Positions 27,911 to 64,000 of a stretch of 64,000 bases of DNA are shown piece after piece (the stretch's first letter is position 1; every line of letters starts with the position of its first letter). The stretch is taken from positions 959 through 64,958 of the forward strand of contig WAJV01000107.1 of the NCBI GenBank assembly GCA_015523725.1, in the 5' to 3' direction. The stretch is from Candidatus Geothermarchaeota archaeon. GTDB lineage: Archaea; Thermoproteota; Nitrososphaeria; Geothermarchaeales; JDFR-13. Below the pieces are notes generated by a model. It was not told the DNA's origin. It ran no database searches and saw nothing but the letters and a program-made list of their open reading frames with translations. The position numbers and the translations under genes were made by a program.

Positions 27911-29365
27911 TTAATTATTAACAATCAATACTCCTCTCAATCCCTGATCCTTATGTCCAGGCACCGTACACCAGAAAACAAATTCCCCGGCGACATCCGC
28001 AACAAAAGTAAGCGTATACTTATCTCCTGGATTGATTGTATCGGTGGTTAAGTTATAACCATCTATAAATAGATTATGGGGTATAGTCCCATTATTAATG
28101 AAAATTATTGTTATTACTTGACCCTTCTCAACAGATATTCTATTTGGGGTGTAAAACCATTCCTGTGCAGAAACTTTAATGGTAATCGATGCATTTGAAC
28201 TATTACCTACTCCAAACTCGGGGACATTACTAAAGGTGGCTCCGCTAATAACATCTTGTTCAAACATGACGTGGATAAATGGCTGTGGCTTACCATTAGG
28301 AAGTATAAATGGAAGATTTAAGGGATGATAAACCGGTCCATTTTTAGTAATCTGTATTGGGAAGACCACTATATGTGTATGATGTAGTTGGCCTGCCGGT
28401 GTATTATCAATATTGAGTGGAAGCTCTTCATCAAGCATTAACCTATAGTTCTTGTCCCTAACGACTTGAGTAGTCATTCCATGAATAACGACGTTTTGCT
28501 CAATAACTTCCCCGTCAACCACGATGTCGCCGAAGGCCCAGAAAGCAGCGTAGGTAAATAATTTAGGCATTAATGGGGAGCCGGTGCCGGTGGTGCCATG
28601 GTGCCATGCATTTAACAAGACTCCTCCACCGGTCTCATAACCTGGTAAGGGAGGCATAAACACATGCTTAACAACTAATTTATAATTGTTACCACTTGGA
28701 TCCGTAAACGTTATATTAGCATTAACTACATCAGATGTATTTATTGGGGGTCCCATAGTATCATATGGAACTTTATCGATGAACTCGATGCTCATAGACC
28801 CGCTCACTATCCTCGCCTTGTCACTGAATAGAGTAGGGACTTTAAGGATATAATCACCCTCTGGTGAGAAGCCCCTCATCTCCTCGGGAGCCGCCACTAA
28901 GAAAGGTAGTTTACGAAGCAATTCTGGAACACTTGAGCCTAGGGGTTGCGGGAGTCTTGAGGATACGTTGATAGCCCACTCCAACCTATCATTCCCGAAC
29001 ATGGGGTTATCGGGGGTCCCGAATACGCTGGGGCTGAGCCTCCTAAACCCTGGCAAAATCCAGTAAACAATCTTCCCTTCTTCCTGGGAGACAGAGACAC
29101 TCCTAACACTTAACTCAGCGACCCTATCACTCAATGACTTAACCTTTGCTCCAAGGGCGTCATTAACACTCTTCAAATTATCTACCTCAGAGCTTAATTG
29201 ATTATTAATGCTCTTCAACTCACCGACCTTAGAACTAATATTATTTAACTGTGGCACCAGATATAGAGCCAGTCCTCCAGCGCCGATAAGAACACCGAAC
29301 ACCAAGACTATAAAATACCTCAAAAAAAGTTTATTATCCGTATTCGACATCATCAAAAACCTCAC
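27911..29365 (-). CDS. membrane-anchored coiled-coil protein with a C-terminal type-1 copper (cupredoxin) domain
   Basis: N-terminal TM, about 55 aa of heptads, a roughly 290-aa unknown domain, and a C-terminal 90 aa with His (PHNLF) ... WCTVPGH (azurin-like C-x-x-P-G-H) ligands. Confidence 0.6.
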   Translation of the reverse strand: MRFLMMSNTDNKLFLRYFIVLVFGVLIGAGGLALYLVPQLNNISSKVGELKSINNQLSSEVDNLKSVNDALGAKVKSLSDRVAELSVRSVSVSQEEGKIVYWILPGFRRLSPSVFGTPDNPMFGNDRLEWAINVSSRLPQPLGSSVPELLRKLPFLVAAPEEMRGFSPEGDYILKVPTLFSDKARIVSGSMSIEFIDKVPYDTMGPPINTSDVVNANITFTDPSGNNYKLVVKHVFMPPLPGYETGGGVLLNAWHHGTTGTGSPLMPKLFTYAAFWAFGDIVVDGEVIEQNVVIHGMTTQVVRDKNYRLMLDEELPLNIDNTPAGQLHHTHIVVFPIQITKNGPVYHPLNLPFILPNGKPQPFIHVMFEQDVISGATFSNVPEFGVGNSSNASITIKVSAQEWFYTPNRISVEKGQVITIIFINNGTIPHNLFIDGYNLTTDTINPGDKYTLTFVADVAGEFVFWCTVPGHKDQGLRGVLIVNN

Positions 29366-30380: not shown

Positions 30381-31628
30381 TTACGATAAATTGCCGAGAA
30401 GAGGGAGAGGGGGGTAGTATCTCAGTAGGCTTAGTCCATACTCTCCTTTGATCCATCTTTGTGACCTCTGTTTAACATGGCTTCTATATTTCCTATAAAT
30501 TTTATGCTTTTCTCTAACATCGAATTTATTAGATAGTATTAGATGTTTTAGAAATACCTTCTCTGGGTGTTTTAGCATTAACTGCCTTAGAAGCCATCTT
30601 ACTTCACTTTTTCTTCTTATCTGTATTTGATAGCACTTGGTTCTTTTATTGAACCTTATTATTGGATTCAGCCCTAATTTTATAAACTCGTTTTTGACAA
30701 TATCTATGAGATATTTTTTACTATTTGTTATCGTTAATATATATTCTCCCTTTTTTGAAATCATTATACTTCCATCTGCATCCATTAACCCTGCTAAGAA
30801 ATTTATGAAATAATTATTAACAGCCCACTCAATCCATCGTCTTCTTCCTCTTCTTTTTACTAAATAGTCATATGGCGGCATTGCTATTCTTACTTCAGTC
30901 TCATAAATCTCTCGTAACTGTTTTCTATATTTTCTCATTCGCTTTGCAAATCTTAGATTATAAGGAAAATTCTTGAATATCTTTTTTATTAGCCCTAGAT
31001 ATGTTATATGCGTCGTTGTCAATTTAAGCTCATAGTAGTTGACGTGCTTATTTATCCCTATGTCATCTAGCAACCCAATTAAATACGCCTTTAATTCATC
31101 ATTAAGCTCTAAGGCGGTATTGAAGTCATAGTGATTCTTTGTGTGATGTACCACTAGATTATGCCTTTTCTTTAAGTTATATACAACTTCGGCCGTTATA
31201 TGATATTTCTTAACAATTTCTTTTGTAGACTTTCCTTGTAATATCTCTCTAATGATTTCTTTTTTATTATAATTGTATAGCTTTCTTTTCCTTTTGATCC
31301 TTAGCTTTTTCGCTTTGTATGGCTTTCTTATTCCTTGTATCCAGTTTTTCAATGTTCTCAATGGAATATCCGGATATCTTTCCTTTATCTCCTTCAGTTT
31401 TAATCCTTGGTTCCAAAGTTTTATTATTTCGTAGTATATTTCTGGTTCATAGCTTTTCTTGTATCTTTTTACTTCTTTCTTCTCAGCTCCTTTAGGTTTC
31501 TTTCCATGATAGAACCAGCCTCTTAATGTATCGTATTTCACTCCCAGCGCTTTCGCTATCTCCTTGATTCGATATCCCTTGTTCCTTAGTTCAATAGCTT
31601 TATAGTATGTCTCTGGGTCATACACCAA
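30381..31628 (-). CDS. free-standing LAGLIDADG homing-endonuclease-like protein with three N-terminal HTH repeats
   Basis: Repeated YYKAIELRNKGYRIKEIAK / YYEIIKLWNQGLKLKEIKE / IIREILQGKSTKEIVKK HTH units. LIGLLDDIG and LAGLMDADGS dodecapeptide motifs. Confidence 0.65.
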   Translation of the reverse strand: MVYDPETYYKAIELRNKGYRIKEIAKALGVKYDTLRGWFYHGKKPKGAEKKEVKRYKKSYEPEIYYEIIKLWNQGLKLKEIKERYPDIPLRTLKNWIQGIRKPYKAKKLRIKRKRKLYNYNKKEIIREILQGKSTKEIVKKYHITAEVVYNLKKRHNLVVHHTKNHYDFNTALELNDELKAYLIGLLDDIGINKHVNYYELKLTTTHITYLGLIKKIFKNFPYNLRFAKRMRKYRKQLREIYETEVRIAMPPYDYLVKRRGRRRWIEWAVNNYFINFLAGLMDADGSIMISKKGEYILTITNSKKYLIDIVKNEFIKLGLNPIIRFNKRTKCYQIQIRRKSEVRWLLRQLMLKHPEKVFLKHLILSNKFDVREKHKIYRKYRSHVKQRSQRWIKGEYGLSLLRYYPPLPLLGNLS

Positions 31629-48099: not shown

Positions 48100-49065
48100 A
48101 TGATCCTAGAAATTCTCTTACTAATCCTAACATTATTTACAATAACACTCCTAACCGGTAATAACATAGGAACCATTAGAGGCCCATTCAAATCACTGGG
48201 GGAGATAAGGAAATTATCCACAATAACAATATTATTTGGAGTATTGATAGGTGTAATAGCAGAAGGCTGGAAGTTAAATAGATTCTATACCGCATACCAA
48301 TTATCAGGTATTGAAGTATTAATATTATTAATTAGCACCACATTCCTAGTACTCATTGGAAACATATATAGAACACCCATATCACTAAACATGTCTATTA
48401 TATCCGGTGTATGGGGTATAAACCTAGCAGCCTCAAACAACTTCGACATCGAATACACCCTCCTGATTATAGCTGCATGGATAACACTCCCACTAATAAG
48501 TATAGTATCATCAGCCGCAATATCCCACATAATAACTAGAAAAAATTTATTGAGGGGGTGGGGAGGCTACTCAATCGAGAAAATCATATCAATAATATCA
48601 ACACTATTTCTAGCATATGTATTCGGTGCGAACACAATAGGACTAATAATATCCATAGTATCGCCGAATCTTAGAATATTTTATGGAGACATAATTCTAC
48701 TATTGGGTATAACAGCATCATATTTAATCGGTATGAAATATTTATCCGGAAGTCTTGAAGCCGGGTTAGCATTCAATATATATAATATAGGCCTAGTCTC
48801 ACTCATATCGAGCCAAATATCCACATTTATCATGCTTGAAATAGCCACACAATTCGGCTTACCAATATCCTTAACCCAAGTCTTCACAATATCACTCATC
48901 GGCGCCTCCCTAAGCCGCAGATTAAAACTAATCAATATTAGATATATAATTCATATGTCCAAAGTCTGGATAACTTCACTTATACTAGGATTCACAATAT
49001 CCATAACACTATATATTCTCCTAAATCTACTCACGATAAATTATCCAGTCCTCCTAACAAGGTAA
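48100..49065 (+). CDS. PiT-family inorganic phosphate/sulfate permease (putative)
   Basis: Polytopic 321 aa. LTGNNIGTIRGPF resembles the PiT GANDVAN-region motif. Two-fold internal repeat. Confidence 0.45.
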   Translation: MILEILLLILTLFTITLLTGNNIGTIRGPFKSLGEIRKLSTITILFGVLIGVIAEGWKLNRFYTAYQLSGIEVLILLISTTFLVLIGNIYRTPISLNMSIISGVWGINLAASNNFDIEYTLLIIAAWITLPLISIVSSAAISHIITRKNLLRGWGGYSIEKIISIISTLFLAYVFGANTIGLIISIVSPNLRIFYGDIILLLGITASYLIGMKYLSGSLEAGLAFNIYNIGLVSLISSQISTFIMLEIATQFGLPISLTQVFTISLIGASLSRRLKLINIRYIIHMSKVWITSLILGFTISITLYILLNLLTINYPVLLTR

Positions 49066-51665
49066 GCAACAACCAAGGAAATTACCAAAGCAACTACGAA
49101 GTAAATATAATATCTGACCAATAGATTCTCCCTAACTACCAATTTAGTAGATGGTATATCATCCCTACCGAGTACAACCTTATAAACACCATTAAATACA
49201 TAATCCACGGAAATATTGATCACATACTCCCCTGGCTTAAGACCAGTAATAATATAATCTTTCTCAAACCCAGCCCCAGATAATGCAACGGCCTCACTAA
49301 CCTCCGTCCCACCGCCTTTGAAAGCTAAGCCACTAGGCAATACAATATTTAAATTAACCGAGTCAATACAATCAACACAGTCACTCTCGATCCTAACCAC
49401 TAATCTCGAGGTCTTACCCTCAGTAACATCAGCTGGAGACAAATGAACCGAGACCCTCACACCATATACAAAAGTTATATTAAAGTCTCCTAAAACAACC
49501 TCCCTCAAAATACCTCCATAAATAAATGATGCCTTAACCCCATTTATGGAGTAGTTACCCTCCTCAGTAGACCTAACCACGATATCAACGGTCTTACTAT
49601 CTCCACCATATACTATGGAAACATTGTTACCAGCATATGTCACGTTCAAAGCCTCGGAGAAGGAGTCGGCCGAAACAGTATAATTGAAGATAGAGTAATC
49701 ACCATTATTACTCAAACTAACATTAATATAGTAGGGGAACTTCGTTATCATCTTACCTCCAGAGGAACTTAATTTAACTATAACTGAATTATTATAGTAA
49801 ATATCCACCCCAGTCTCTATAGAATATGAATAAGATGGTGTCATCACATTTACCACAAAAATTGGATAGAGGAATGGCTTACTTGACGTAACATTGAAAA
49901 TAGCTGAGAAAGATTTTTTAGCACCCACTCCAAGCGCGAACCCATGGACAATTATACTTGAGTCATTTAGTGAATAGTCTCCACCAGAGTATTTTATATC
50001 AGAGATAATGCTTTCTAAATTAGCCTTGACACTTACATCGGTAGCATCTACTAATCCAGCATTCTCAATAGATACAGTTACATTAAGCAAACTATTATTA
50101 ATATAATGTTGTTCATCCAACTTAACAGAAGGCCAATATATTTTATTCGGAGTATAGGCAACATAGGTTTCTGGAGAAGTTATGTTAAAATTCATCGAGC
50201 CAATCATATAAGTAGCTTTACCAAAAACAGGTAGGATTATGTCCAACGGCGACTCCACATTAACACTCGATTCCACTATCCTCTCCTCTCCAGGAGCCAA
50301 TGAGCCAATTACATACTCGCCTACTATTAGATTATCAACCGATACAGAGCCTCTGTTCTTAACCACCAGCTTATAATTGAAGGGCTTACCTAGCTCAGCC
50401 TTCGCATTAGGAATATCCATAGTAAGGTCTATAAAGCCTCCATTTGAATGGATATACTGAGTCTGAGAAAAATATGTTAATGATTGATTATTTGATAGTT
50501 TAACGATAGCCTTGGCAGACCCTATATAAATATCTTGACTCAAATTCTCAATCCTAACAACATATTTGATTATCCTACTCTGACCTCCCTTCAAATCAGT
50601 TACATTACCCTCTACAACACCAGATACAAGAGATACTCCGGGCTGATCCCACCACGGATACTCCTTAACAACAACCTTACCTACACTCACCTTACCAACA
50701 TTCTCAATCTTGAGGTAAACCTCATAAACCCCCCCAGCTGAAAAATCAGTACTATTAAAATCTCTAGTGACCACTATCAGTGGGTAATCCAACCTCAACT
50801 CAATATCCAGGGGATTAAGCTTCGACCCTGGAGAGGTTGATCCACTAATAATCATGAAGCGAGTCTTAGAATCACTCAAACTAACATTATATATACTAGG
50901 TATCTTAGATAACATAATATACCTTGAATAAATTGTGAAATCCACTGTATTCGTGTCATTGGGATAAGGCTCCCAATCTATCTGACCCAATAAATTCTTG
51001 AAACCGCCAGGATTCCTATTGATAAAAGAAATAAATAGGTCTGCAACTCCATTATCAACATCAGCCAATAAAGTTATGTTATAATAGTCAAAGTCAGTCA
51101 TTCTCGTGACTGGAGTCCACTTGGCTACTGCATAGCCTAAATTATCTATGAAACCTAGTAATTTACTCTTATAAACTATGTCACTATACGGAGATAAATA
51201 TATGTATGATCCATTGTCCACCTGATACCTCATAAAAGCCAACATAAGTCTATTAGAAAAATCTTTAGCTACAGCATCCACATCCATGGATGTGGATGAA
51301 GGAGTCAACACTAATAACGCCTTACTACCCGGCACATATAATAGACCAGTACCATTATACCATAAGCCATCAAGAAAATAATTATAAGTATTTTTCCAAT
51401 CACTATTCTTAATAAAACTAAGTTTAAAACTCTTTAAACCACCCCCGAATCCACCCAACAGACTCGACAAACTATTATATAAATCAGCGGAATTTCGAAG
51501 ACCCAACCTAATTAACAACGAATCATACCCCACAAATATCTTTACAGACTCATTTACAGAGCCTTGAGCATACACGGCTCCCGGGCGACTAATATAACTA
51601 AATAAACCCAATAGTAAAATCACCAATATTACGATACGTATACTCCTCACCTTAGACACCAGCAA
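49041..51665 (-). CDS. large extracellular surface protein (S-layer/cell-surface glycoprotein candidate), signal peptide + C-terminal TM anchor
   Basis: N-terminal signal ILVILLLGLFSYISRPGAVYA. Beta-rich Ser/Thr/Asn-rich body with many N-x-S/T sequons. C-terminal YIYFVVALVISLVVAYLVRR anchor. Confidence 0.6.
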   Translation of the reverse strand: MLVSKVRSIRIVILVILLLGLFSYISRPGAVYAQGSVNESVKIFVGYDSLLIRLGLRNSADLYNSLSSLLGGFGGGLKSFKLSFIKNSDWKNTYNYFLDGLWYNGTGLLYVPGSKALLVLTPSSTSMDVDAVAKDFSNRLMLAFMRYQVDNGSYIYLSPYSDIVYKSKLLGFIDNLGYAVAKWTPVTRMTDFDYYNITLLADVDNGVADLFISFINRNPGGFKNLLGQIDWEPYPNDTNTVDFTIYSRYIMLSKIPSIYNVSLSDSKTRFMIISGSTSPGSKLNPLDIELRLDYPLIVVTRDFNSTDFSAGGVYEVYLKIENVGKVSVGKVVVKEYPWWDQPGVSLVSGVVEGNVTDLKGGQSRIIKYVVRIENLSQDIYIGSAKAIVKLSNNQSLTYFSQTQYIHSNGGFIDLTMDIPNAKAELGKPFNYKLVVKNRGSVSVDNLIVGEYVIGSLAPGEERIVESSVNVESPLDIILPVFGKATYMIGSMNFNITSPETYVAYTPNKIYWPSVKLDEQHYINNSLLNVTVSIENAGLVDATDVSVKANLESIISDIKYSGGDYSLNDSSIIVHGFALGVGAKKSFSAIFNVTSSKPFLYPIFVVNVMTPSYSYSIETGVDIYYNNSVIVKLSSSGGKMITKFPYYINVSLSNNGDYSIFNYTVSADSFSEALNVTYAGNNVSIVYGGDSKTVDIVVRSTEEGNYSINGVKASFIYGGILREVVLGDFNITFVYGVRVSVHLSPADVTEGKTSRLVVRIESDCVDCIDSVNLNIVLPSGLAFKGGGTEVSEAVALSGAGFEKDYIITGLKPGEYVINISVDYVFNGVYKVVLGRDDIPSTKLVVRENLLVRYYIYFVVALVISLVVAYLVRRTG

Positions 51666-51793: not shown

Positions 51794-54340
51794 CTAAATA
51801 CCTTCAGGGTCCACTATCCCAGCCCTAGTTATAGCGAATACAGCCTCCCCAGGCGGGTGCTCAGGACTATCCACAATTAAAGCTATTCTTAGATTCTTCT
51901 TGGACTTCCTTAAGTAAATCCGATAAGTAACTGCATGCGCCACTACATGGCCACCAACTGGTTTAGTCGGATCGCCAAACATTATATCCGGCTGCTCCTG
52001 AACCTGATTAGTAATCACTATCGCTACATCATACACCTCAGCTATTCTAAGAAGCTCATGCATAAATCTATTAAGTAATTGTTGTCTCTCCGAGAGTTTT
52101 CCCCTACCTATATATTCAGCCCTAAAAGGTGCAATTGCCGAGTCAATCGCGATAAAACCGACATTATTCTCCTTAATCTTTTTAGGTAAAGAATGACTCA
52201 ATAATAATAGATGAGTTGTATTAAAGGCTCTCGCCACAATTATCCGATGTAATGCATCCCGGGGATCCAATCCCCTAGCATTAGCTATATCCACTATCCT
52301 AGATGGACTAAAAGTCTTCTCAGTATCGATATATATGGCATTCATATTCAGACCTCCCTGATCCTCAGGCAGCTGCACATTAACAGCAAGAGTATGACAC
52401 AATTGCGTATTATGAAGTATACAGGGATTTACACCACCAATAAATGTATGATAACCTGGAACCACCACATCATACACGTAATCGTTATACTCTATTAATT
52501 TAGATTTAGTGACTATATCCCACCTCAAATCCTTTATAAATTCTATTGTAGAGACAGCATTTCTCAGAATCTGGATCCGTCGATCCAATTCCCCTAATAA
52601 GACCTCTCTAATCTTCTTCACTTTATTCCTGTCCCTAGGTAGCCCCCTATATACATAATTCCATATTGTAGTCTTTGAAACTCCTAGTTGATTTGCAAGA
52701 ATCCCCCTAACTGAGAATGGAATCTCCCTATAAATCCTCTTGAAATTAACCAGATCATTATCCTCATTAATCACATTTTTAAGCTCTATGAATTTCTCAA
52801 TGTATTTACTGAAGACATTAAGTACCCTATCTACAACATATGTCGAAATATATTTCTGCTTGGATTTAGCCAATCTAATTAGTAAATGATATGCAGCATC
52901 AGCTCCCCAACTATTCCCACCAACATCTTTCCGCAATCTCCCCCGATTACCGCCGATAGTTGATTTGTATACGTTCCTCAAGTAGGTAGAGATAATAGCA
53001 GGCAACTCATCATAATCTTTACTTCTTTTAATAGAATTAACTTCTCGAGATTTAAATGGCAGACTATCTATTTTATACCTATCGTTTCCACTGATAAATA
53101 TTTTATAATAGGTTTTCCCATTAATCTTCTTCTCCCTAAGAACTCCTCTCACTCCTATTCTCAATAATAGATACAGTATATTTGTAGCCAGTCTTTTACT
53201 GGCAGTAGAGAGTTCTATTGCCCCATATTCTCTATAATATCCGCCTCCTTCAATATACCCAGCCAAAAAAGCTTCCACAATCCTTCTAGGTCCATTTAAA
53301 ATAATCTCTGGAATCCATTTATCCCTTGATTTTACTTTAGAGACTTTCACAATCCATTCTCCAACAGGCTTTCTTAAAAGTATTCTAGGCGGATGCCTAC
53401 TACTTTTGTCTCTATATATTTTAGGCTTAAAACCGAACTTCCTATACACGTATTCAGTTATCCATCCTAGCAAACTCTCATCCTTCAGTGAAATCGATAA
53501 GGGATTATACCCTCCTTCAGCGATATATAGACCCATAAAATATGCATCATCTGAATCCAATCCATTGGATTTACCGGCCTCAAAGTCAATCTCTTTGGGA
53601 CACGCTATATAATCCCCCTCCCTTACTTCACTAGCCCTAACCCAGGAAACACCATCCTCCCTAAGAATTAATAATGGATGGCTCTTCGTAATCCTGAGGA
53701 TACCTCCAAACTCAGTATGTATCTCCATCAGCTTCGATACTTTTTCTCTATAAATATAAGGTGCAGCTACGACTTTAAAACCTTCAGGCCCTAAAGCAAG
53801 CACCTTCATTTCTGGAGCGGTGACTAAATAGCCGTCTCCATACTTAGTCTCACCATATAGATCCCTATAGTTTTCATAAAGTTTCTCCATTGTATCAATG
53901 TGTGGAGTGTCTGGATTAATATATAATATTGGAGTGTCCTTAGAGAAACATTTTCCTGAACCGAATTCACCATAGAACTCCGTCACCGCTCCAGTTGCAA
54001 TGCCGCCTTTAAGAAGCTCATCTAAATTTTTTGACCCTGTAGTTATATATCTCCTCATACTAATCTTCTCCATTAAATAGTCCGCAGTCACAAAATCATC
54101 CTCAACCAAGCCACGTTCCTTTAATAAGTTATATGCATTTAGAATAATCTTCTCAGCTCTCTCCACCCCAGTATTCAGCATCTCAGCCAGTTGTATAGGC
54201 GAATATAATAATAATCCCTTCGCATCAGTTATACCCAGCTCCCTTAACTTCCTAGCAGTAACATCACCGATACCGGGAACCTCTTTTAAACTAACCTCTT
54301 CACTCACAACAATCTCCCCACTATACAGATTATACCTCAA
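51794..54340 (-). CDS. radA: DNA repair and recombination protein RadA, interrupted by a 514-aa intein in the Walker A motif
   Basis: N-terminal HhH. GEFGSGK|C...HN|TQLCHTLAVNVQLP splice junctions. Exteins sum to 334 aa with classic RadA motifs. Confidence 0.9.
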   Translation of the reverse strand: MRYNLYSGEIVVSEEVSLKEVPGIGDVTARKLRELGITDAKGLLLYSPIQLAEMLNTGVERAEKIILNAYNLLKERGLVEDDFVTADYLMEKISMRRYITTGSKNLDELLKGGIATGAVTEFYGEFGSGKCFSKDTPILYINPDTPHIDTMEKLYENYRDLYGETKYGDGYLVTAPEMKVLALGPEGFKVVAAPYIYREKVSKLMEIHTEFGGILRITKSHPLLILREDGVSWVRASEVREGDYIACPKEIDFEAGKSNGLDSDDAYFMGLYIAEGGYNPLSISLKDESLLGWITEYVYRKFGFKPKIYRDKSSRHPPRILLRKPVGEWIVKVSKVKSRDKWIPEIILNGPRRIVEAFLAGYIEGGGYYREYGAIELSTASKRLATNILYLLLRIGVRGVLREKKINGKTYYKIFISGNDRYKIDSLPFKSREVNSIKRSKDYDELPAIISTYLRNVYKSTIGGNRGRLRKDVGGNSWGADAAYHLLIRLAKSKQKYISTYVVDRVLNVFSKYIEKFIELKNVINEDNDLVNFKRIYREIPFSVRGILANQLGVSKTTIWNYVYRGLPRDRNKVKKIREVLLGELDRRIQILRNAVSTIEFIKDLRWDIVTKSKLIEYNDYVYDVVVPGYHTFIGGVNPCILHNTQLCHTLAVNVQLPEDQGGLNMNAIYIDTEKTFSPSRIVDIANARGLDPRDALHRIIVARAFNTTHLLLLSHSLPKKIKENNVGFIAIDSAIAPFRAEYIGRGKLSERQQLLNRFMHELLRIAEVYDVAIVITNQVQEQPDIMFGDPTKPVGGHVVAHAVTYRIYLRKSKKNLRIALIVDSPEHPPGEAVFAITRAGIVDPEGI
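52409..53950 (-). mobile_element. RadA P-loop intein with LAGLIDADG homing endonuclease domain (in-frame protein-splicing element)
   Basis: Begins with Cys after GSGK. Block B TKSHPLL. Two dodecapeptide motifs FMGLYIAEGG / FLAGYIEGGG. Ends ILHN followed by Thr+1. Confidence 0.85.
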
Positions 54341-58827: not shown

Positions 58828-59118
58828 ATGAAGAAGTTAGTTCTCTATACACCCGAGAATATTGAGGGAGAGAAACTATTTAGATTAGTTAAGGCCTTGA
58901 AGCAGGAGGCTGAACTACTCAGACTAAGCTTCACAGGACCCATATTCCGAGAAGACGATAAATTAGTAGTCTACTATGAAGACGATGAGATAAGGACATT
59001 CATCTATGTAGATGATCTAAATAATGAATTGGATACGGAGAAAATAAGAGCCACAATAAAGGTCTTAGCCTTAATAGCGATGGATAAAGAAGAGGAAATA
59101 TATGTCGAAAACATATAA
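58828..59118 (+). CDS. hypothetical acidic protein
   Basis: 96 aa with native codon usage. No motif. Confidence 0.3.
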   Translation: MKKLVLYTPENIEGEKLFRLVKALKQEAELLRLSFTGPIFREDDKLVVYYEDDEIRTFIYVDDLNNELDTEKIRATIKVLALIAMDKEEEIYVENI

Positions 59119-59126
59119 ATAAAAGA

Positions 59127-59438
59127 CTAGTGGCACCCCATCCCATAAGAATCATAGTCATAATTATCCATCATACCATCATAGCCATGCATCATATGCA
59201 TATGGTGCATCATATCCTCGCACTCCTCGTGAGACTCTGGATAGCCATGGTCATCATCAGTGGAATGCCCTTCATCACCAGCCATCATACCGCCACCCCA
59301 GTGAGCACCATGCATTACTGAACTATATACATATCCAGAGACCAAGGGCGCCACCGCCAACACAAACAATAAACCAACCAGAACAACCAATAAACCATCC
59401 TTCATAACAATCACCAATCCCATCATAAACAGAAACAA
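59127..59438 (-). CDS. secreted Met/His-rich putative metal (Cu/Co/Ni)-binding protein
   Basis: Signal/TM anchor, then a C-terminal 50 aa packed with H and M (MMHHMHMMHGYDGMM, HWGGGMMAGDEGH). T/G3 codon usage unlike neighbouring native genes. Confidence 0.5.
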   Translation of the reverse strand: MFLFMMGLVIVMKDGLLVVLVGLLFVLAVAPLVSGYVYSSVMHGAHWGGGMMAGDEGHSTDDDHGYPESHEECEDMMHHMHMMHGYDGMMDNYDYDSYGMGCH

Positions 59439-59531
59439 TACTTAAACATACCTGAAACAAGCCGAAACAACCCCGAACAAAAAACAAAAACTTAAAAACA
59501 AAAACCAAAAAAATATACAATACAGAAACTA

Positions 59532-59624
59532 GGGCCCGTCGTCTAGCTTGGCTAGGATGCCAGCCTGGGGACCCATATTGGGCTAGTGCGCTGGTGATCG
59601 TGGGTTCAAATCCCACCGGGCCCA
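59532..59624 (+). tRNA. tRNA-Pro (anticodon GGG by the preferred fold, UGG alternative) with an approximately 18-nt intron after position 37
   Basis: Acceptor GGGCCCG/CGGGCCC. T-arm GTGGG-TTCAAAT-CCCAC. Anticodon stem CCAGC/GCTGG. Loop C-T-GGG-G, then an 18-nt insert. Discriminator A. Confidence 0.7.
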
Positions 59625-60212
59625 CCTAGGACCCTTATTTATTTTTAGTGTATAAGTTTCGACTGATGTTTTAGGAGTGGATATTAATAAATAAAGATGA
59701 GGATGGAGCTGGTTTTTCTATATGATAGGCCTAGTTGCATTTCTAGTATGCTGAAACTAGCTTCACCGAGAGATCTCTGGACAAACTGCTCTATAAAAAT
59801 AACTATTTGATAGTTATGATGATTTGTCATGAGTTTCTCACCGTCTCTCTTGATAGATACGCTTCCAGCCTTAGTAACTAGGTATGGTCCTGTAGCTGTT
59901 ATATCAAGATATTTCTCTAGTAGGTACTTTACATAGTATAGTAGTTTTATACTGTTGTTTGAAAGAAATATTCGCATAAACCTATAATTAGATCCGTCTT
60001 ATCGTATAGTCTTCTTAGGAGCTTGCTACGGTTTCATGGTTATACCTGATGTATGGTGTCAATGTTTCCAATGTCTGCCATTTATACTATGTGCAGAACC
60101 CCTTCGAGCTATAGTATATTCTCCACATATTTTAGCTAATACTCCATATTGGCGTCTTATATTTCTGTCACTTAATTTACATTCCCAATAATTTTTATAT
60201 TATGGTGTTATT

Positions 60213-61145
60213 ATGCATATACCTGATGGTGTTCTAGATCCAGCTACATCATCATTTTTCTATTTAATAACTATCATATATGGCATATTAGTGATAAAGT
60301 ATATTAAAAGGAAAAGAGGCGTCTCGGATTATAACATATCAGTTATCTCCACCGTAACTGCATTAGTATTTATTGCTCAAATGATTAACTGGCCTATTCC
60401 AGGTGGTACGTCTCTACATTTGGTTGGTGGCGGATTAGTGGGTGTGTTATTAGGCCCCATTTATGGCTATCTTTCGATGTCTATTGTTCTAGCTGTTCAA
60501 TGTTTCCTTTTTGGCGACGGAGGAGTGTCGGCATTAGGGGCCAATATTTTTAATATGGCTATTATCGGTGTCTTAAGCGGGTATGTTGTATACCGCATTA
60601 CAAAACAATTTTTATCGAATTCTTCCAAAGCCGTTTTTATTGCCGGTTTTTTGGCAGGATGGTTGAGCCTTGCGCTAGCAGGATTTGCTTGTGGGGTAGA
60701 GATCGGAATATCCAGATATTTCGGATTTAACTTAGGGATTACTGTACCAATCATGACCGGATGGCACATTATATTAGGGCTCATTGAAGGTTTTTTAACA
60801 GCATTAATATTGGAATATTTCTCTAGAAAATTTGGTAACGAGTATCTACTAACTGGTGGAAACGCAAGTTATGATCTCAGTATAATAAATGCATCAATGG
60901 TCTTAGCTCTCTTTGTATCCCCATTGTTTTCCATTTTCCTAGCTAATATGATGGGTTACAAGGAGCCTATAGATCTAATACTTGATTTAATAGGTTTTAA
61001 GACAGGGGGAAGAGTTTTAACATCACCCTTTATGGGGTATTCATTCCCCTTTCTACCCAGTTTTTTAGGATATATTCTTTCAGGTTTTATTGGTGTAACA
61101 GTCATTTATGCGATATTTATAATGGTTAAGCTTGTATCCAAATGA
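60213..61145 (+). CDS. cbiM: ECF transporter substrate-specific component CbiM/NikM, probably CbiM-CbiN fusion
   Basis: Diagnostic N-terminus MHIPDGVL. 310 aa with a roughly 90-aa two-TM C-terminal extension. T3 codon usage. Confidence 0.7.
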   Translation: MHIPDGVLDPATSSFFYLITIIYGILVIKYIKRKRGVSDYNISVISTVTALVFIAQMINWPIPGGTSLHLVGGGLVGVLLGPIYGYLSMSIVLAVQCFLFGDGGVSALGANIFNMAIIGVLSGYVVYRITKQFLSNSSKAVFIAGFLAGWLSLALAGFACGVEIGISRYFGFNLGITVPIMTGWHIILGLIEGFLTALILEYFSRKFGNEYLLTGGNASYDLSIINASMVLALFVSPLFSIFLANMMGYKEPIDLILDLIGFKTGGRVLTSPFMGYSFPFLPSFLGYILSGFIGVTVIYAIFIMVKLVSK

Positions 61146-62858: not shown

Positions 62859-64000
62859 TCAAGAATTATTTTGGTTACCCCCTCCCTTTCTAATACTGTT
62901 CTCTATCTCAATTAGATCCTTAATATATAAATTATTTTCATCTCGCGCTCTATGTATTCCGAATAAACCCCTCTTAATAACCTCGAACAAATTCTTAATC
63001 CTATGTCTCAACACCTCCTTTACCAAATATTTAGGCCTCAAATAAAACCTTTGATATGCCCAGTGAAGAAGCCTACGGACATCATCCAATGAAAAACGGT
63101 ATCCACGCATAATAGGCTGAATAGTAGTATATCTGCTCCAATCCCATACTTCTATGAAACCCATCGACTTAGCATATTCATATAATGGAGTCCCAGGAAA
63201 GGGTGTTGCGGCAGTGAACTGAGCATAATCAAGACCTAAGTCAATTGAGAATTTCACAATATTCTTCATGTCATCTATAGTCTGCCATGGAAAACCCAAT
63301 ATAAAACTACCCGCAGCCTCTAAACCAAATAAATGGGTTAATTCAACAGCCCTCCAAACCTGACTTATAGTAACCTTCTTACCTATCCTAACCAGATCCT
63401 CATCCTTATACGACTCAATACCATAATATATTATGGAGCAACCGCTCCTACTTAACCCTGCCAAGACCTCTCTATCCACGTTACTAACTCTAGAGCCGCA
63501 GGTATATGTTATGTCTAGCCCCCTATCCATTATCAGCTCTGTAAACTTAAGCACCCATCTCTTACTAAGCGTTAACTCATCATCGGTAAAAGCCACTATA
63601 CGCGTATTATATTTGTCTAAGGCCTCCTCAATCTCATCGACAACGGACTCGGGGCTCCTAATCCTATACCTCCTCCCCCATAAATAACTAGTAGTGCAAT
63701 AAATACATCCATATGGACATCCTCTACTAGCCATAATATGAACAATCCTAATAGGCTTATCAAATAGAGTATAACGATCCATAGGAAGGAGGTGCCTAGC
63801 TGGCCTAGGCAATATATCTAAATCCCGAATAAGTTCACGATATCCATTAAACCTTGGAACTCCCTCTACTCTATAAGCAACGCCCCTAATCTCCCGCAAA
63901 TCAGGGCGTCCAGACTCAATATACCTAACCAACTCTAGAGAAGTAAACTCACCCTCACCGACAACAACATAGTCAACATAACCAGTGGATAAAGCCTCAT
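62859..64000 (-). CDS. B12-binding (class B) radical SAM enzyme, 5' end beyond window
   Basis: rSAM cluster CPYGCIYC. The frame stays open upstream of the track start to the window edge, through ...DYVVVGEGE..., a cobalamin-binding-domain motif. T3 codon usage. Confidence 0.65.
   Translation of the reverse strand, partial: EALSTGYVDYVVVGEGEFTSLELVRYIESGRPDLREIRGVAYRVEGVPRFNGYRELIRDLDILPRPARHLLPMDRYTLFDKPIRIVHIMASRGCPYGCIYCTTSYLWGRRYRIRSPESVVDEIEEALDKYNTRIVAFTDDELTLSKRWVLKFTELIMDRGLDITYTCGSRVSNVDREVLAGLSRSGCSIIYYGIESYKDEDLVRIGKKVTISQVWRAVELTHLFGLEAAGSFILGFPWQTIDDMKNIVKFSIDLGLDYAQFTAATPFPGTPLYEYAKSMGFIEVWDWSRYTTIQPIMRGYRFSLDDVRRLLHWAYQRFYLRPKYLVKEVLRHRIKNLFEVIKRGLFGIHRARDENNLYIKDLIEIENSIRKGGGNQNNS

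What the first reader, a model, noticed from the sequence alone, without database searches (positions are those of the whole stretch)
59127..59438. Secreted Met/His-rich protein adjacent to the cobalt transporter
This is a 103-aa protein. It has an N-terminal hydrophobic anchor or signal. Its C-terminal half is dominated by His and Met in MxxM/HxxM-like arrangements (MMHHMHMMHGYDGMM), plus a terminal Cys and acidic residues. Such Mets/His motifs are typical of periplasmic Cu(I)/Cu(II) or Ni/Co-binding chaperones. Its location next to cbiMQO and its foreign codon usage suggest a metal-handling accessory, possibly a metallochaperone or metal sponge for the ECF transporter.
Basis: partly seen in the sequence, partly recalled or inferred. 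Interest (0 to 1): 0.55.

Follow-up and report, generated by a model that had tools for sequence, protein, structure and literature searches.

The report
Small archaeal Met/His/Cys-rich membrane protein
This is a real gene for a tiny membrane-anchored or secreted acidic protein from a rare, unnamed archaeal family, whose methionine-, histidine- and cysteine-rich tail looks built to bind metal ions such as copper; nothing ties it to the nearby cobalt transporter.

Summary
The ORF is real, but it most likely starts at the conserved ATG at 59405, giving 92 aa rather than 103. It is under purifying selection (dN/dS 0.15-0.31 in four pairs). It has a strongly hydrophobic N-terminal segment. The 68-residue tail has 11 Met, 10 His, 2 Cys, 14 Asp/Glu and no Lys/Arg.

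It matches no Pfam, NCBIfam or PDB entry. Exhaustive searches found about ten relatives, in two subfamilies, all unnamed or "hypothetical". The shared signature is one hydrophobic N-terminal helix followed by 1-3 copies of H-x(0-1)-[DE]-[DE]-C-E-x-M-M. The window's subfamily also ends in GMGCH.

Codon usage is native. The cbiMQO neighbourhood is not conserved: the genes are divergent, separated by a tRNA-Pro gene and a LAGLIDADG pseudogene, and cbiM is absent at that position in all three relatives whose contigs reach that far.

Best reading, which is inferred and not shown: an extracytoplasmic soft-metal (most likely Cu(I)) buffer or chaperone that works like SilE/PcoE or the Ctr1 ectodomain but is not homologous to them. 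It is a new variant of a known kind and of modest interest.

The parts
59127..59405 (-). Coding sequence of the 92-aa protein (MKDG...GMGCH; stop codon at 59127-59129)
   Evidence: ORF. The ATG and Shine-Dalgarno are conserved in six lineages. dN/dS is 0.25 against L001 and is the best of the six frames; 0.15-0.31 in three other pairs. One gene call on record starts here (P0001).
59334..59405 (-). Residues 1-24: short n-region (MKD), an 18-19-residue hydrophobic core and a conserved P-x-V-x-G | Y-V-Y. Either an uncleaved signal anchor or a Sec-type signal peptide
   Evidence: Kyte-Doolittle peak 2.94. AlphaFold helix 2-32, pLDDT about 84. Conserved across the family. The choice between cleavage and anchoring was not testable here.
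59130..59333 (-). Residues 25-92: acidic Met/His/Cys-rich tail, the predicted extracytoplasmic metal-binding region
   Evidence: Composition. Mostly disordered in the AlphaFold model, apart from helix 57-73. Invariant M31, G38-G39-M40-M41, H47, H59, E61, C62, E63, M65, M66, H68, M89-G90-C91-H92 across the five sequences of its subfamily.
59208..59231 (-). Family core motif HEECEDMM (residues 59-66)
   Evidence: H-x(0-1)-[DE]-[DE]-C-E-x-M-M is present 1-3 times in all 11 family sequences listed. On a helix, H, C, M and M fall within an arc of about 120 degrees.
59169..59213 (-). Lineage-specific Met/His run MMHHMHMMHGYDGMM (residues 65-79). It occupies the place of the second and third Cys-containing repeats of relatives
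   Evidence: Alignments. Present only in the window and L001.
59130..59144 (-). C-terminal GMGCH (MGCH invariant in the window's subfamily)
59410..59415 (-). GGTGAT Shine-Dalgarno-like element, 4 nt upstream of the ATG
   Evidence: Invariant in six lineages.
59439..59446 (-). TATA-like box TTTAAGTA, its 3' end 33 nt upstream of the ATG (putative promoter)
   Evidence: Conserved as TTTAAGTA, TTTAATTA or TTTATGTA in six lineages. Its function is inferred.
59432..59470 (-). Three copies of TTGTTTC (59464-59470, 59454-59460, 59432-59438) bracketing the TATA-like box; a possible operator
   Evidence: These are 3 of the 10 copies in the 64-kb window. The columns are invariant across lineages. Function not tested.

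Best explanation
The locus encodes a genuine, vertically inherited 92-aa protein.

Proposed mechanism (inferred):
- A single N-terminal hydrophobic helix targets the protein to the membrane, either as a signal anchor or as a cleaved signal peptide.
- The 68-residue tail is then exposed outside the cytoplasmic membrane. It is very acidic, has no basic residues and is largely disordered.
- The tail carries soft-metal ligands: Met, His and two Cys. These include the family motif H-E-E-C-E-D-M-M and the C-terminal M-G-C-H.
- It most likely binds thiophilic metal cations, with Cu(I) the best guess. Ag, Cd, Zn and Fe(II) are not excluded.
- The motif region probably folds into a helix on binding.
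- The protein would then act as an envelope metal buffer ('sponge') or chaperone.
- It has its own conserved promoter, possibly regulated through TTGTTTC repeats. It is not a component of the neighbouring CbiM(N)QO transporter.

Shown here: the gene is real, its composition, the family and its motif, the conserved synteny, native codon usage, and the non-conserved cbi adjacency.

Inferred: topology, metal binding, metal identity and physiological role.
For: Real gene:
- dN/dS is 0.25 and is the best of six frames; 0.27, 0.15 and 0.31 in other pairs.
- The ATG and GGTGAT are conserved.

Family:
- An exhaustive HMMER search and two profile searches found only about ten clusters.
- They fall into two subfamilies that match profile-to-profile at 96.5% probability, E 8e-10.
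- What is conserved is the hydrophobic N-terminus plus the His, Cys, Met and Glu positions. The rest of the tail evolves fast and changes repeat number. That is the pattern expected if the ligands are the function.

Structure and topology:
- The motif places H, C, M and M on one helical face.
- AlphaFold predicts helices exactly over the motif regions and disorder elsewhere.
- With no Lys/Arg and 14 Asp/Glu after the hydrophobic segment, the tail is expected to lie outside, by the positive-inside rule (established knowledge).

Precedents:
- SilE and PcoE are disordered periplasmic His/Met proteins that gain helical structure on Ag(I) or Cu(I) binding (shown for SilE with Ag(I); reported for PcoE with Cu(I)). 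Their ligands are spaced i to i+3 or i+4, and they act as metal sponges (PMC5008109; PMC7558416).
- Ctr1 has a multi-Cu(I)-binding N-terminal metal-binding domain and a C-terminal HCH Cu(I) site (PMC6437178).

Context:
- In the sister subfamily the gene always follows a membrane-tethered wHTH regulator that has an invariant PMWQMHMxMMG loop. This is an independent hint of metal-related function.
- The same genome encodes at least one membrane-anchored cupredoxin-domain protein, so copper is handled outside the membrane.
Against: - No experiment and no homology to any characterised metal-binding protein. There are no Pfam, NCBIfam or PDB hits.
- No copper, silver or other metal-resistance gene is a conserved neighbour. 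The conserved neighbours are tRNA-Pro, a 96-aa protein without Cys or His, and Orc1/Cdc6.
- Over the whole segment 57-73 the ligands are not significantly one-sided (p = 0.18).
- The AlphaFold models have low confidence (mean pLDDT 58 and 53).
- Acidic E-x-x-E plus Cys/His would also suit Fe, Zn, Ni or Co.
- Topology and signal-peptide cleavage were judged by rules of thumb only.
Confidence: 0.5

Rival explanations
1. Accessory metallochaperone or metal sponge of the adjacent CbiM(N)QO ECF transporter, capturing Co or Ni and feeding it to CbiM.
For:
- His, Cys and Asp/Glu are also good Ni/Co ligands.
- The cbiM, cbiQ and cbiO assignments are solid.
Against: - The genes are divergently transcribed and separated by a tRNA-Pro gene and a LAGLIDADG pseudogene.
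- cbiM, cbiQ and cbiO are absent from every related locus fetched. In the three loci that extend past the breakpoint, the neighbours are different genes.
- The region beyond the tRNA is a synteny breakpoint.
- The known accessory components (CbiN, NikN, NikK, NikL) are described as parts of the cbi/nik gene clusters, and the N components have two TM segments (PMC2667541). This protein has one TM, and the CbiM here already carries a fused two-TM PDGLE-like extension.
- Met-rich sites are typical of Cu(I)/Ag(I), not of Ni/Co (established knowledge).
Confidence: 0.06
2. A metal-sensing or regulatory partner rather than a buffer. The small protein reports envelope metal status to a membrane-bound transcription factor or another sensor, as suggested by the operon of the sister subfamily.
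For: - The sister subfamily is always encoded directly downstream of a DUF7343 wHTH protein. That protein has two N-terminal TM segments and an invariant Met/His ecto-loop.
- The window's promoter region is more conserved than the protein and carries three TTGTTTC repeats around the TATA box.
Against: - No homologue of that regulator is found in the window or in any locus of the window's subfamily (tblastn).
- The adjacency is known only for the distant subfamily.
Confidence: 0.14
3. A dedicated copper-insertion chaperone for extracytoplasmic cuproproteins, working like PCuAC or Sco, rather than a detoxifying sponge.
For: - The window encodes a membrane-anchored protein with a C-terminal cupredoxin domain (27911-29365).
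- The Met/His/Cys ligand set suits Cu(I) transfer.
Against: - The cupredoxin gene is 30 kb away with no conserved linkage.
- There is no similarity to the PCuAC, Sco or CopC folds.
- The variable repeat number suggests capacity rather than a precise transfer site.
Confidence: 0.1
4. A small membrane protein whose biased composition is not about metals, for example an envelope or S-layer-associated acidic peptide, or a class III (pilin-like) signal-peptide protein.
For: - No direct evidence for metal binding.
- MKDG|LLVV fits a loose prepilin-peptidase pattern (own reading of the sequence).
Against: - The conserved positions are exactly the His, Cys and Met residues.
- The pilin-like pattern breaks in relatives: Ser at position -1 in P0005 and Tyr at +2 in P0004.
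Confidence: 0.15
5. Not a gene: a chance ORF in a composition-skewed intergenic stretch.
For: - It is short and of low complexity.
- The first 11 codons of the 103-codon ORF overlap the promoter region.
Against: - dN/dS is well below 1 in four independent pairs, and this frame is the best of six.
- The start codon and Shine-Dalgarno are conserved.
- The motif is conserved down to about 40% identity.
Confidence: 0.03

Closest known systems
SilE / PcoE periplasmic 'metal sponge' proteins of Enterobacteria
   Same: - Small, exported, rich in His and Met with i to i+3 or i+4 spacing.
- Largely disordered, with helix-prone motif segments.
- Proposed to soak up Cu(I)/Ag(I) in the envelope (PMC5008109, PMC7558416).
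- The window protein has MxxM, HxxM, MxxH and HxxH spacings in MMHHMHMMH, and a predicted helix over residues 57-73.
   Different: - No detectable sequence homology.
- It is archaeal and half the size.
- It contains conserved Cys and the motif HxEECExMM.
- It is probably membrane-anchored.
- It is not encoded in a sil/pco-type resistance operon.
Ctr1 copper transporter: N-terminal metal-binding ectodomain and C-terminal HCH
   Same: - A Met/His cluster on the outside that binds several Cu(I) ions, attached to a TM helix.
- A flexible extreme C-terminus ending in a Cys-His Cu(I) site: HCH in Ctr1, GCH here (PMC6437178).
   Different: - Ctr1 is a three-TM trimeric eukaryotic channel whose HCH is cytoplasmic.
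- Here there is one TM and no channel, and both elements lie on the same side.
- This is an analogy only.
CbiN / NikN / NikK / NikL accessory components of ECF Co/Ni transporters
   Same: Small membrane proteins that work with CbiM/NikM. The window gene lies near a cbiM gene.
   Different: - CbiN and NikN have two TM segments, and these accessory components are described as parts of the cbi/nik gene clusters (PMC2667541).
- This protein has one TM, is divergent from cbiM, and matches neither CbiN nor the PDGLE domain.
- It is not linked to cbi genes in relatives.
Csp1 copper storage proteins and bacterial metallothioneins
   Same: High-capacity Cu(I) binding by many Cys (with some Met/His) on helices. 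Csp1 is exported (PMC7558416).
   Different: - Csps are pre-folded four-helix bundles with 13 or more Cys and form tetramers.
- This protein has 2 Cys (5 in relatives), is predicted to be mostly disordered, and shows no Csp homology.
Sister subfamily of 69-97-aa archaeal proteins (P0007-P0011), all unnamed or 'hypothetical'
   Same: - The same design: MDKNLL-TM, MMGWN, His/Met-rich stretch and HDECE[DE]MM.
- hhalign probability 96.5%.
   Different: - No C-terminal GMGCH.
- Encoded in the order membrane wHTH (DUF7343), small protein, luciferase-like oxidoreductase. This context is absent from the window.

Membership tests
SilE/PcoE metal-sponge family | Detectable sequence homology to SilE or PcoE | tested here: not met
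   No Pfam or NCBIfam family at E <= 0.1 and E <= 1 respectively. No PDB chain matches the single sequence or the family profile. I did not check whether the libraries contain a SilE/PcoE model.
SilE/PcoE metal-sponge family | Repeated His/Met motifs with i to i+3 or i+4 spacing in an exported, largely disordered protein | tested here: met
   MMHHMHMMH gives MxxM, HxxM, MxxH and HxxH spacings. The N-terminus is hydrophobic. AlphaFold predicts disorder apart from helix 57-73.
SilE/PcoE metal-sponge family | Encoded within a metal-resistance operon (sil or pco) under metal-responsive control | tested here: not met
   The conserved neighbours are tRNA-Pro, a 96-aa protein and orc1/cdc6. No efflux or resistance genes are adjacent.
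SilE/PcoE metal-sponge family | Metal-induced folding and multi-ion Ag(I)/Cu(I) binding | not testable with these tools
   Needs CD, NMR or ESI-MS on purified protein.
ECF Co/Ni transporter accessory component (CbiN, NikN, NikK, NikL) | Encoded in the cbi/nik operon, with linkage conserved across genomes | tested here: not met
   The gene is divergent from cbiM, with a tRNA and a pseudogene between them. No cbiM, cbiQ or cbiO is found in L004, L005, L020 or any other related locus.
ECF Co/Ni transporter accessory component (CbiN, NikN, NikK, NikL) | CbiN or PDGLE-type sequence and two-TM topology (N components) | tested here: not met
   No CbiN or PDGLE hit. Only one hydrophobic segment. The two-TM PDGLE-like element is instead fused to CbiM.
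Archaeal TRASH-domain copper proteins (CopM/CopT type) | TRASH/YHS-type Cys motif domain | tested here: not met
   No Pfam hit. Only two Cys, 29 residues apart. The spacing rule for TRASH domains is recalled from memory.
Folded periplasmic Cu chaperones (CusF, CopC, PCuAC, Sco) | Beta-barrel, cupredoxin-like or thioredoxin-like fold with a defined Met/His or Cys site | tested here: not met
   No Pfam, NCBIfam or PDB sequence match. The AlphaFold models contain helices and coil only, at low confidence.
Csp copper storage proteins | Cys-lined four-helix bundle | tested here: not met
   2 Cys; no bundle predicted; no sequence match.
New family defined here (TM + HxEECExMM repeat proteins) | N-terminal single hydrophobic helix, at least one H-x(0-1)-[DE]-[DE]-C-E-x-M-M motif, an acidic tail free of Lys and Arg, and (in subfamily 1) a C-terminal MGCH | tested here: met
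Class III (prepilin-like) signal-peptide proteins | Conserved [KR]-[GA] cleavage site immediately before the hydrophobic stretch | tested here: not met
   The window has K-D-G|L. P0005 has Ser at position -1 and P0004 has Tyr at +2. The pattern is recalled from memory; no predictor was run.

The most novel reading that the evidence does not exclude
The two subfamilies together are a previously undescribed archaeal envelope metal module. It consists of single-pass proteins that display HxEECExMM repeats. In the sister clade these work with a membrane-tethered winged-helix regulator carrying its own Met/His ecto-loop. In the window's clade they are controlled through the conserved TTGTTTC-flanked promoter. 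On this reading, the module is a new way for archaea to sense and buffer Cu(I)-like metals outside the membrane.
Probability: 0.2. Interest if true: 0.55.

Novelty: new variant of a known kind. Interest (0 to 1): 0.3.

Why it matters
Little is known about how archaea handle metals outside the cytoplasmic membrane. In particular, I found no description of an archaeal counterpart of the bacterial periplasmic sponges and chaperones, either in my literature searches or from my own knowledge.

If this family binds Cu(I) or related metals, it would be a compact new ligand design (His-Cys-Met-Met on one helical face, in 1-3 copies). In the sister clade it might also be the handle for a new membrane-bound metal-responsive regulator.

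For annotating this window, the practical result is negative. The gene should not be labelled a CbiMQO accessory, and it is not a foreign insertion.

Tried and rejected
- **Family and structure libraries.** Pfam, NCBIfam and PDB sequence searches with the single protein and with the family profile returned nothing usable. The two PDB matches at E 0.5-1.7 (cytochrome c1, OmpT) are compositional noise.
- **Genome-collection scan with the single protein.** It returned only spurious bacterial hits. These were a signal-peptide word in a 261-aa Alkalispirochaeta protein and a 'DDDHGYPE' word in an antisense ORF. It did not contain the window's own genome, so the organism's name could not be obtained.
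- **Accession and cluster look-ups.** None gave a taxon or a sample description.
- **Exact look-ups of the window's own proteins.** No contig is on record for them.
- **Viral contigs.** No relatives found.
- **Foreign origin.** Rejected on codon usage and synteny.
- **Helical one-sidedness over residues 57-73.** Not significant (p = 0.18); only the 8-9-residue core motif is one-sided.
- **AlphaFold models.** Both are too low in confidence for a fold search, so none was run.
- **TTGTTTC motif.** Not enriched elsewhere in the window and not found upstream of cbiM. It gives no regulon link.
- **Regulator and oxidoreductase of the sister subfamily.** Both are absent from the window.
- **RiPP-precursor idea** (small Cys-containing peptide near radical-SAM genes). 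Dropped. The radical-SAM genes are not conserved neighbours. In L005 the radical-SAM/SPASM gene is not adjacent either; it lies next to an aldehyde ferredoxin oxidoreductase gene, about 5.6 kb from the small gene.
Full report
**1. What is in the sequence**

The start needs correcting. I aligned the upstream region from six lineages: the window, L001, L004, L005, L006 and L009. The ATG at 59405 (M-K/R-D) is invariant, and so is a GGTGAT Shine-Dalgarno-like element 4 nt upstream of it. The TTG at 59438 directly follows a conserved TATA-like box (TTTAAGTA, 59439-59446). One gene call on record also begins at MKDG (P0001, 92 aa). The protein is therefore most likely 92 aa:

MKDGLLVVLVGLLFVLAVAPLVSGYVYSSVMHGAHWGGGMMAGDEGHSTDDDHGYPESHEECEDMMHHMHMMHGYDGMMDNYDYDSYGMGCH

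- Residues 4-22 are strongly hydrophobic, with a Kyte-Doolittle 19-residue mean of up to 2.94.
- Residues 25-92 contain 11 Met, 10 His, 11 Gly, 14 Asp/Glu, 7 Tyr, 2 Cys and no Lys or Arg.
- The Met+His density, 20 in 60 residues, is the highest of 252 stop-free stretches in the window. The next independent stretch has 11.
- The protein ends in -GMGCH, so the Cys is penultimate.

**2. Is it a real gene?**

Yes.

- Against a closely related metagenomic strain (L001, 92.6% nucleotide identity over the ORF), the frame shows 10 synonymous and 12 non-synonymous differences and no indels. dS is 0.195, dN is 0.049 and dN/dS is 0.25, the best ratio of the six frames.
- Three further pairs give 0.27 (L006/L009), 0.15 (L010/L013) and 0.31 (L004/L005).
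- The tail evolves faster than its neighbours. dN is 0.073, against 0.011 for orc1/cdc6 and 0 for the adjacent 96-aa ORF.

**3. Codon usage is not foreign**

- The mean log relative synonymous-codon probability is -1.025.
- The same amino acids drawn from the window's own usage (44 long ORFs) give -1.029 +/- 0.048. Gene-sized chunks of those ORFs give -1.069 +/- 0.080.
- The ORF's 46% GC is what its amino-acid composition predicts, 45.3 +/- 1.6%.
- The conserved synteny described below also argues for vertical inheritance.

**4. Relatives**

Nothing matched in Pfam, NCBIfam or the PDB, whether I searched with the single sequence or with the family profile.

- A word-indexed search of 5.8 billion proteins found only the protein itself and the L001 allele.
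- An exhaustive HMMER pass over 1.84 billion representatives added one distant relative, P0004.
- Profile iterations and a metagenome scan added P0005, P0006 (and the L009 allele) and a second subfamily, P0007-P0011.
- None carries any name other than 'hypothetical protein'.
- None is on a viral contig.

The two subfamilies match profile-to-profile with 96.5% probability, E 8e-10.

The family signature is:
- a short n-region (M-K/R-D or M-D-K);
- one hydrophobic helix of about 20 residues;
- a GGMM or MMGW element;
- 1-3 copies of H-x(0-1)-[DE]-[DE]-C-E-x-M-M;
- in the window's subfamily, a C-terminal (G)MGCH.

Relatives P0004-P0006 have three Cys-containing repeats and 5 Cys. The window and L001 keep one repeat (HEECEDMM), and the run MMHHMHMMHGYDGMM stands where the other repeats would be. 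The 'Met/His-rich' look is therefore a lineage-specific version of a His/Cys/Met/Glu repeat protein.

All tails in the window's subfamily lack Lys and Arg.

**5. Structure and topology**

AlphaFold was run with the shallow family alignment.
- For the window protein it gives helix 2-32 (pLDDT about 84) and helix 57-73 over ESHEECEDMMHHMHMMH (pLDDT about 64). The rest is disordered, and mean pLDDT is 58.
- For the three-repeat relative P0004 it gives helix 2-32 and helices over the repeats. Mean pLDDT is 53.

These models are too weak for fold comparison, but they are consistent with a TM or signal helix followed by a disordered, helix-prone tail.

In the core motif, H, C, M and M fall within about 120 degrees of a helical wheel in every family member. 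Over the whole 57-73 segment of the window protein the ligands are everywhere, and one-sidedness is not significant (p = 0.18).

By the positive-inside rule (established knowledge), a tail with 14 acidic and no basic residues should lie outside the membrane.

A conserved P-x-V-x-G | Y-[VM]-Y after the hydrophobic core fits the (-3,-1) rule for signal peptidase I. However, the hydrophobic core is long (18-19 residues), and the sister subfamily has no such site. Cleaved signal and uncleaved anchor therefore remain equally plausible. No predictor was available.

**6. Genomic context**

The window is housekeeping archaeal chromosome. It includes:
- A-type ATPase subunits, family B DNA polymerase, ProRS, GatD/E, Elp3, Nop56 and fibrillarin;
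- SMC/ScpB, TFB, Trm1 and RNase HII;
- RadA with an insertion, AsnRS and Orc1/Cdc6.

Around the gene, the following order is conserved in every locus of the window's subfamily long enough to show it (L004, L005, L006, L007 and L020; the short contigs L001, L008 and L009 show only the adjacent parts):

RadA, AsnRS, glycosyltransferase, AMMECR1, Orc1/Cdc6, 96-aa ORF (convergent), this gene, tRNA-Pro (divergent), LAGLIDADG endonuclease.

The cobalt/nickel transporter is not part of that conserved block.
- In the window, cbiM (60213) lies 775 bp from the end of the ORF as drawn (59438), on the opposite strand.
- tRNA-Pro(GGG), with an 18-nt intron (59532-59626), and two remnants of the LAGLIDADG gene (59744-59974 and 60024-60128) lie between them.
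- In L004 and L005 the genes beyond the endonuclease are a 232-aa protein and a HAD hydrolase.
- In L020 the gene beyond it is an unrelated hydrophobic protein.
- tblastn with CbiM, CbiQ and CbiO found them in none of the related loci.
- The transporter also looks complete. CbiM (PF01891, E 7e-59) has a C-terminal extension of about 100 residues with two hydrophobic segments and a weak PDGLE match, and it is followed by CbiQ and CbiO. This corresponds to the two-TM N component described for Cbi/Nik systems (PMC2667541).

The hypothesis that this gene is an accessory of the ECF transporter therefore loses its only support.

**7. Hints from elsewhere**

(a) In the sister subfamily the small gene always lies between a 143-150-aa protein and a luciferase-like oxidoreductase. 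The 143-150-aa protein has two N-terminal hydrophobic segments, an invariant PMWQMHMxMMG-x-Y-x-FPM loop and a C-terminal winged helix (DUF7343/MarR-like). A membrane-tethered regulator with its own Met/His loop beside a Met/His/Cys tail protein points to metal sensing or handling. Neither partner is present in the window or in its subfamily's loci.

(b) The 126-bp region between the ATG and the tRNA is more conserved than the protein. Mean column identity is 76% among lineages whose proteins are about 50-57% identical. It contains three TTGTTTC copies bracketing the TATA-like box. These are 3 of only 10 copies in 64 kb. This may be an operator.

(c) The window encodes a membrane-anchored 484-aa protein with a C-terminal cupredoxin domain, so the organism places copper outside the membrane.

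(d) L005 has CutA1 and a CDF cation-efflux gene 3-5 kb away, but other genes lie between. I give this no weight.

**8. Most likely mechanism**

The ligand set is Met thioether, His imidazole and Cys thiolate, set in an acidic, flexible, exported tail. This is the chemistry of Cu(I)/Ag(I) sites in envelope proteins.
- SilE and PcoE are disordered His/Met proteins that fold into helices on metal binding and act as sponges. Their ligands are spaced i to i+3 or i+4 (PMC5008109; PMC7558416).
- Ctr1 has a multi-Cu(I) ectodomain and a flexible C-terminal HCH Cu(I) site (PMC6437178). The window protein's -GCH end and its Met/His clusters echo both elements.

I therefore favour an extracytoplasmic soft-metal buffer or chaperone, with Cu(I) as the best guess. 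The variable repeat number and fast-evolving spacers fit capacity rather than precise recognition.

This is inference from composition, conservation pattern and analogy. Fe(II), Zn, Cd, Ni and Co cannot be excluded, because E-x-x-E, His and Cys suit them too.

**9. Comparison with known families**

The protein works like SilE/PcoE or the Ctr1 ectodomain, but it is not a member of either. There is no homology, it contains conserved Cys, it is probably anchored, it is archaeal, and it is not in a resistance operon.

It is not CbiN, NikN, NikK or NikL. It is not a TRASH-domain protein. It is not a folded CusF, CopC, PCuAC or Sco-type chaperone. It is not a Csp four-helix bundle.

It defines, with about ten relatives, a small unnamed family.

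**10. Verdict**

The sequence observation is largely right, apart from the start codon, the codon-usage claim and the strength of 'adjacent'.

A metal-binding exported protein is plausible. The link to the cobalt transporter and a foreign origin are not supported.

Novelty: a new variant of a known kind. Interest is modest (0.3), rising if the regulator-linked module of the sister clade proves to be a real envelope metal sensor.

Noticed in passing
window 59532-59626 (+): tRNA-Pro(GGG) with an 18-nt intron. Default ARAGORN missed it. Rfam and aragorn -i found it. Across relatives the intron varies in sequence and length (about 30 nt in L004). The T-stem shows fully compensatory changes: GTGGG/CCCAC, CCCGG/CCGGG and GCCGG/CCGGC.
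   Followed up: partly
window 59744-59974 and 60024-60128 (-): Remnants of a LAGLIDADG_3 homing-endonuclease gene. It is intact (257-265 aa) next to the same tRNA in L004, L007, L008, L009 and L020, and frameshifted in L005. The position beyond it is a synteny breakpoint, and in this window that is where cbiMQO sits.
   Followed up: partly
window 59406-59531 (intergenic, read on the minus strand): G/T-rich intergenic region that is more conserved across lineages than the downstream protein. It contains three TTGTTTC repeats around a TATA-like box, a second TTTTTAAG element, and the tRNA promoter on the other strand. It may be an operator or a shared control region.
   Followed up: partly
window 58828-59118 (+): A 96-aa acidic protein with no Cys or His and no family match. 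It is convergent with the Met/His gene (8 bp between the stop codons). It is 100% identical in L001 and 74-88% identical in the other lineages, so it is far better conserved than its neighbour. Function unknown.
   Followed up: partly
L010 9469-9921; L011, L013, L016 and L019 equivalents: A membrane-tethered winged-helix protein (DUF7343, 143-150 aa) with an invariant PMWQMHMxMMG.Y.FPM loop between two hydrophobic segments. It is always immediately upstream of the sister-subfamily small protein and a luciferase-like oxidoreductase. It is a candidate membrane-bound metal-responsive regulator.
   Followed up: partly
window 51794-54340 (-): RadA is 848 aa here but 317-323 aa in L004, L006, L007 and L020. 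The extra sequence is presumably an intein inserted in the ATPase domain of this lineage only. I did not run a domain search on it.
   Followed up: no
window 27911-29365 (-): A 484-aa membrane-anchored protein with a C-terminal cupredoxin (type-1 copper-like) domain. The ligand region reads ...IPHN...FWCTVPGHKDQGL.
   Followed up: no
window 30381-31628 (-): A second free-standing LAGLIDADG_3 ORF, fused to N-terminal HTH_23/transposase-type helix-turn-helix domains.
   Followed up: no
window 60213-61145 (+), with 62859-63932 (-): CbiM begins MHIPDG. It carries a fused C-terminal extension with two hydrophobic segments (residues 221-249 and 280-310) and a weak PDGLE match, probably a fused N component. 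A radical-SAM gene lies immediately downstream of cbiO, convergent with it.
   Followed up: partly
window 49041-51665 (-): An 874-aa ORF with no Pfam match at E <= 1e-5. The gene at the equivalent position in L020 (867 aa) has only faint CARDB/CLIPPER-type hits.
   Followed up: no
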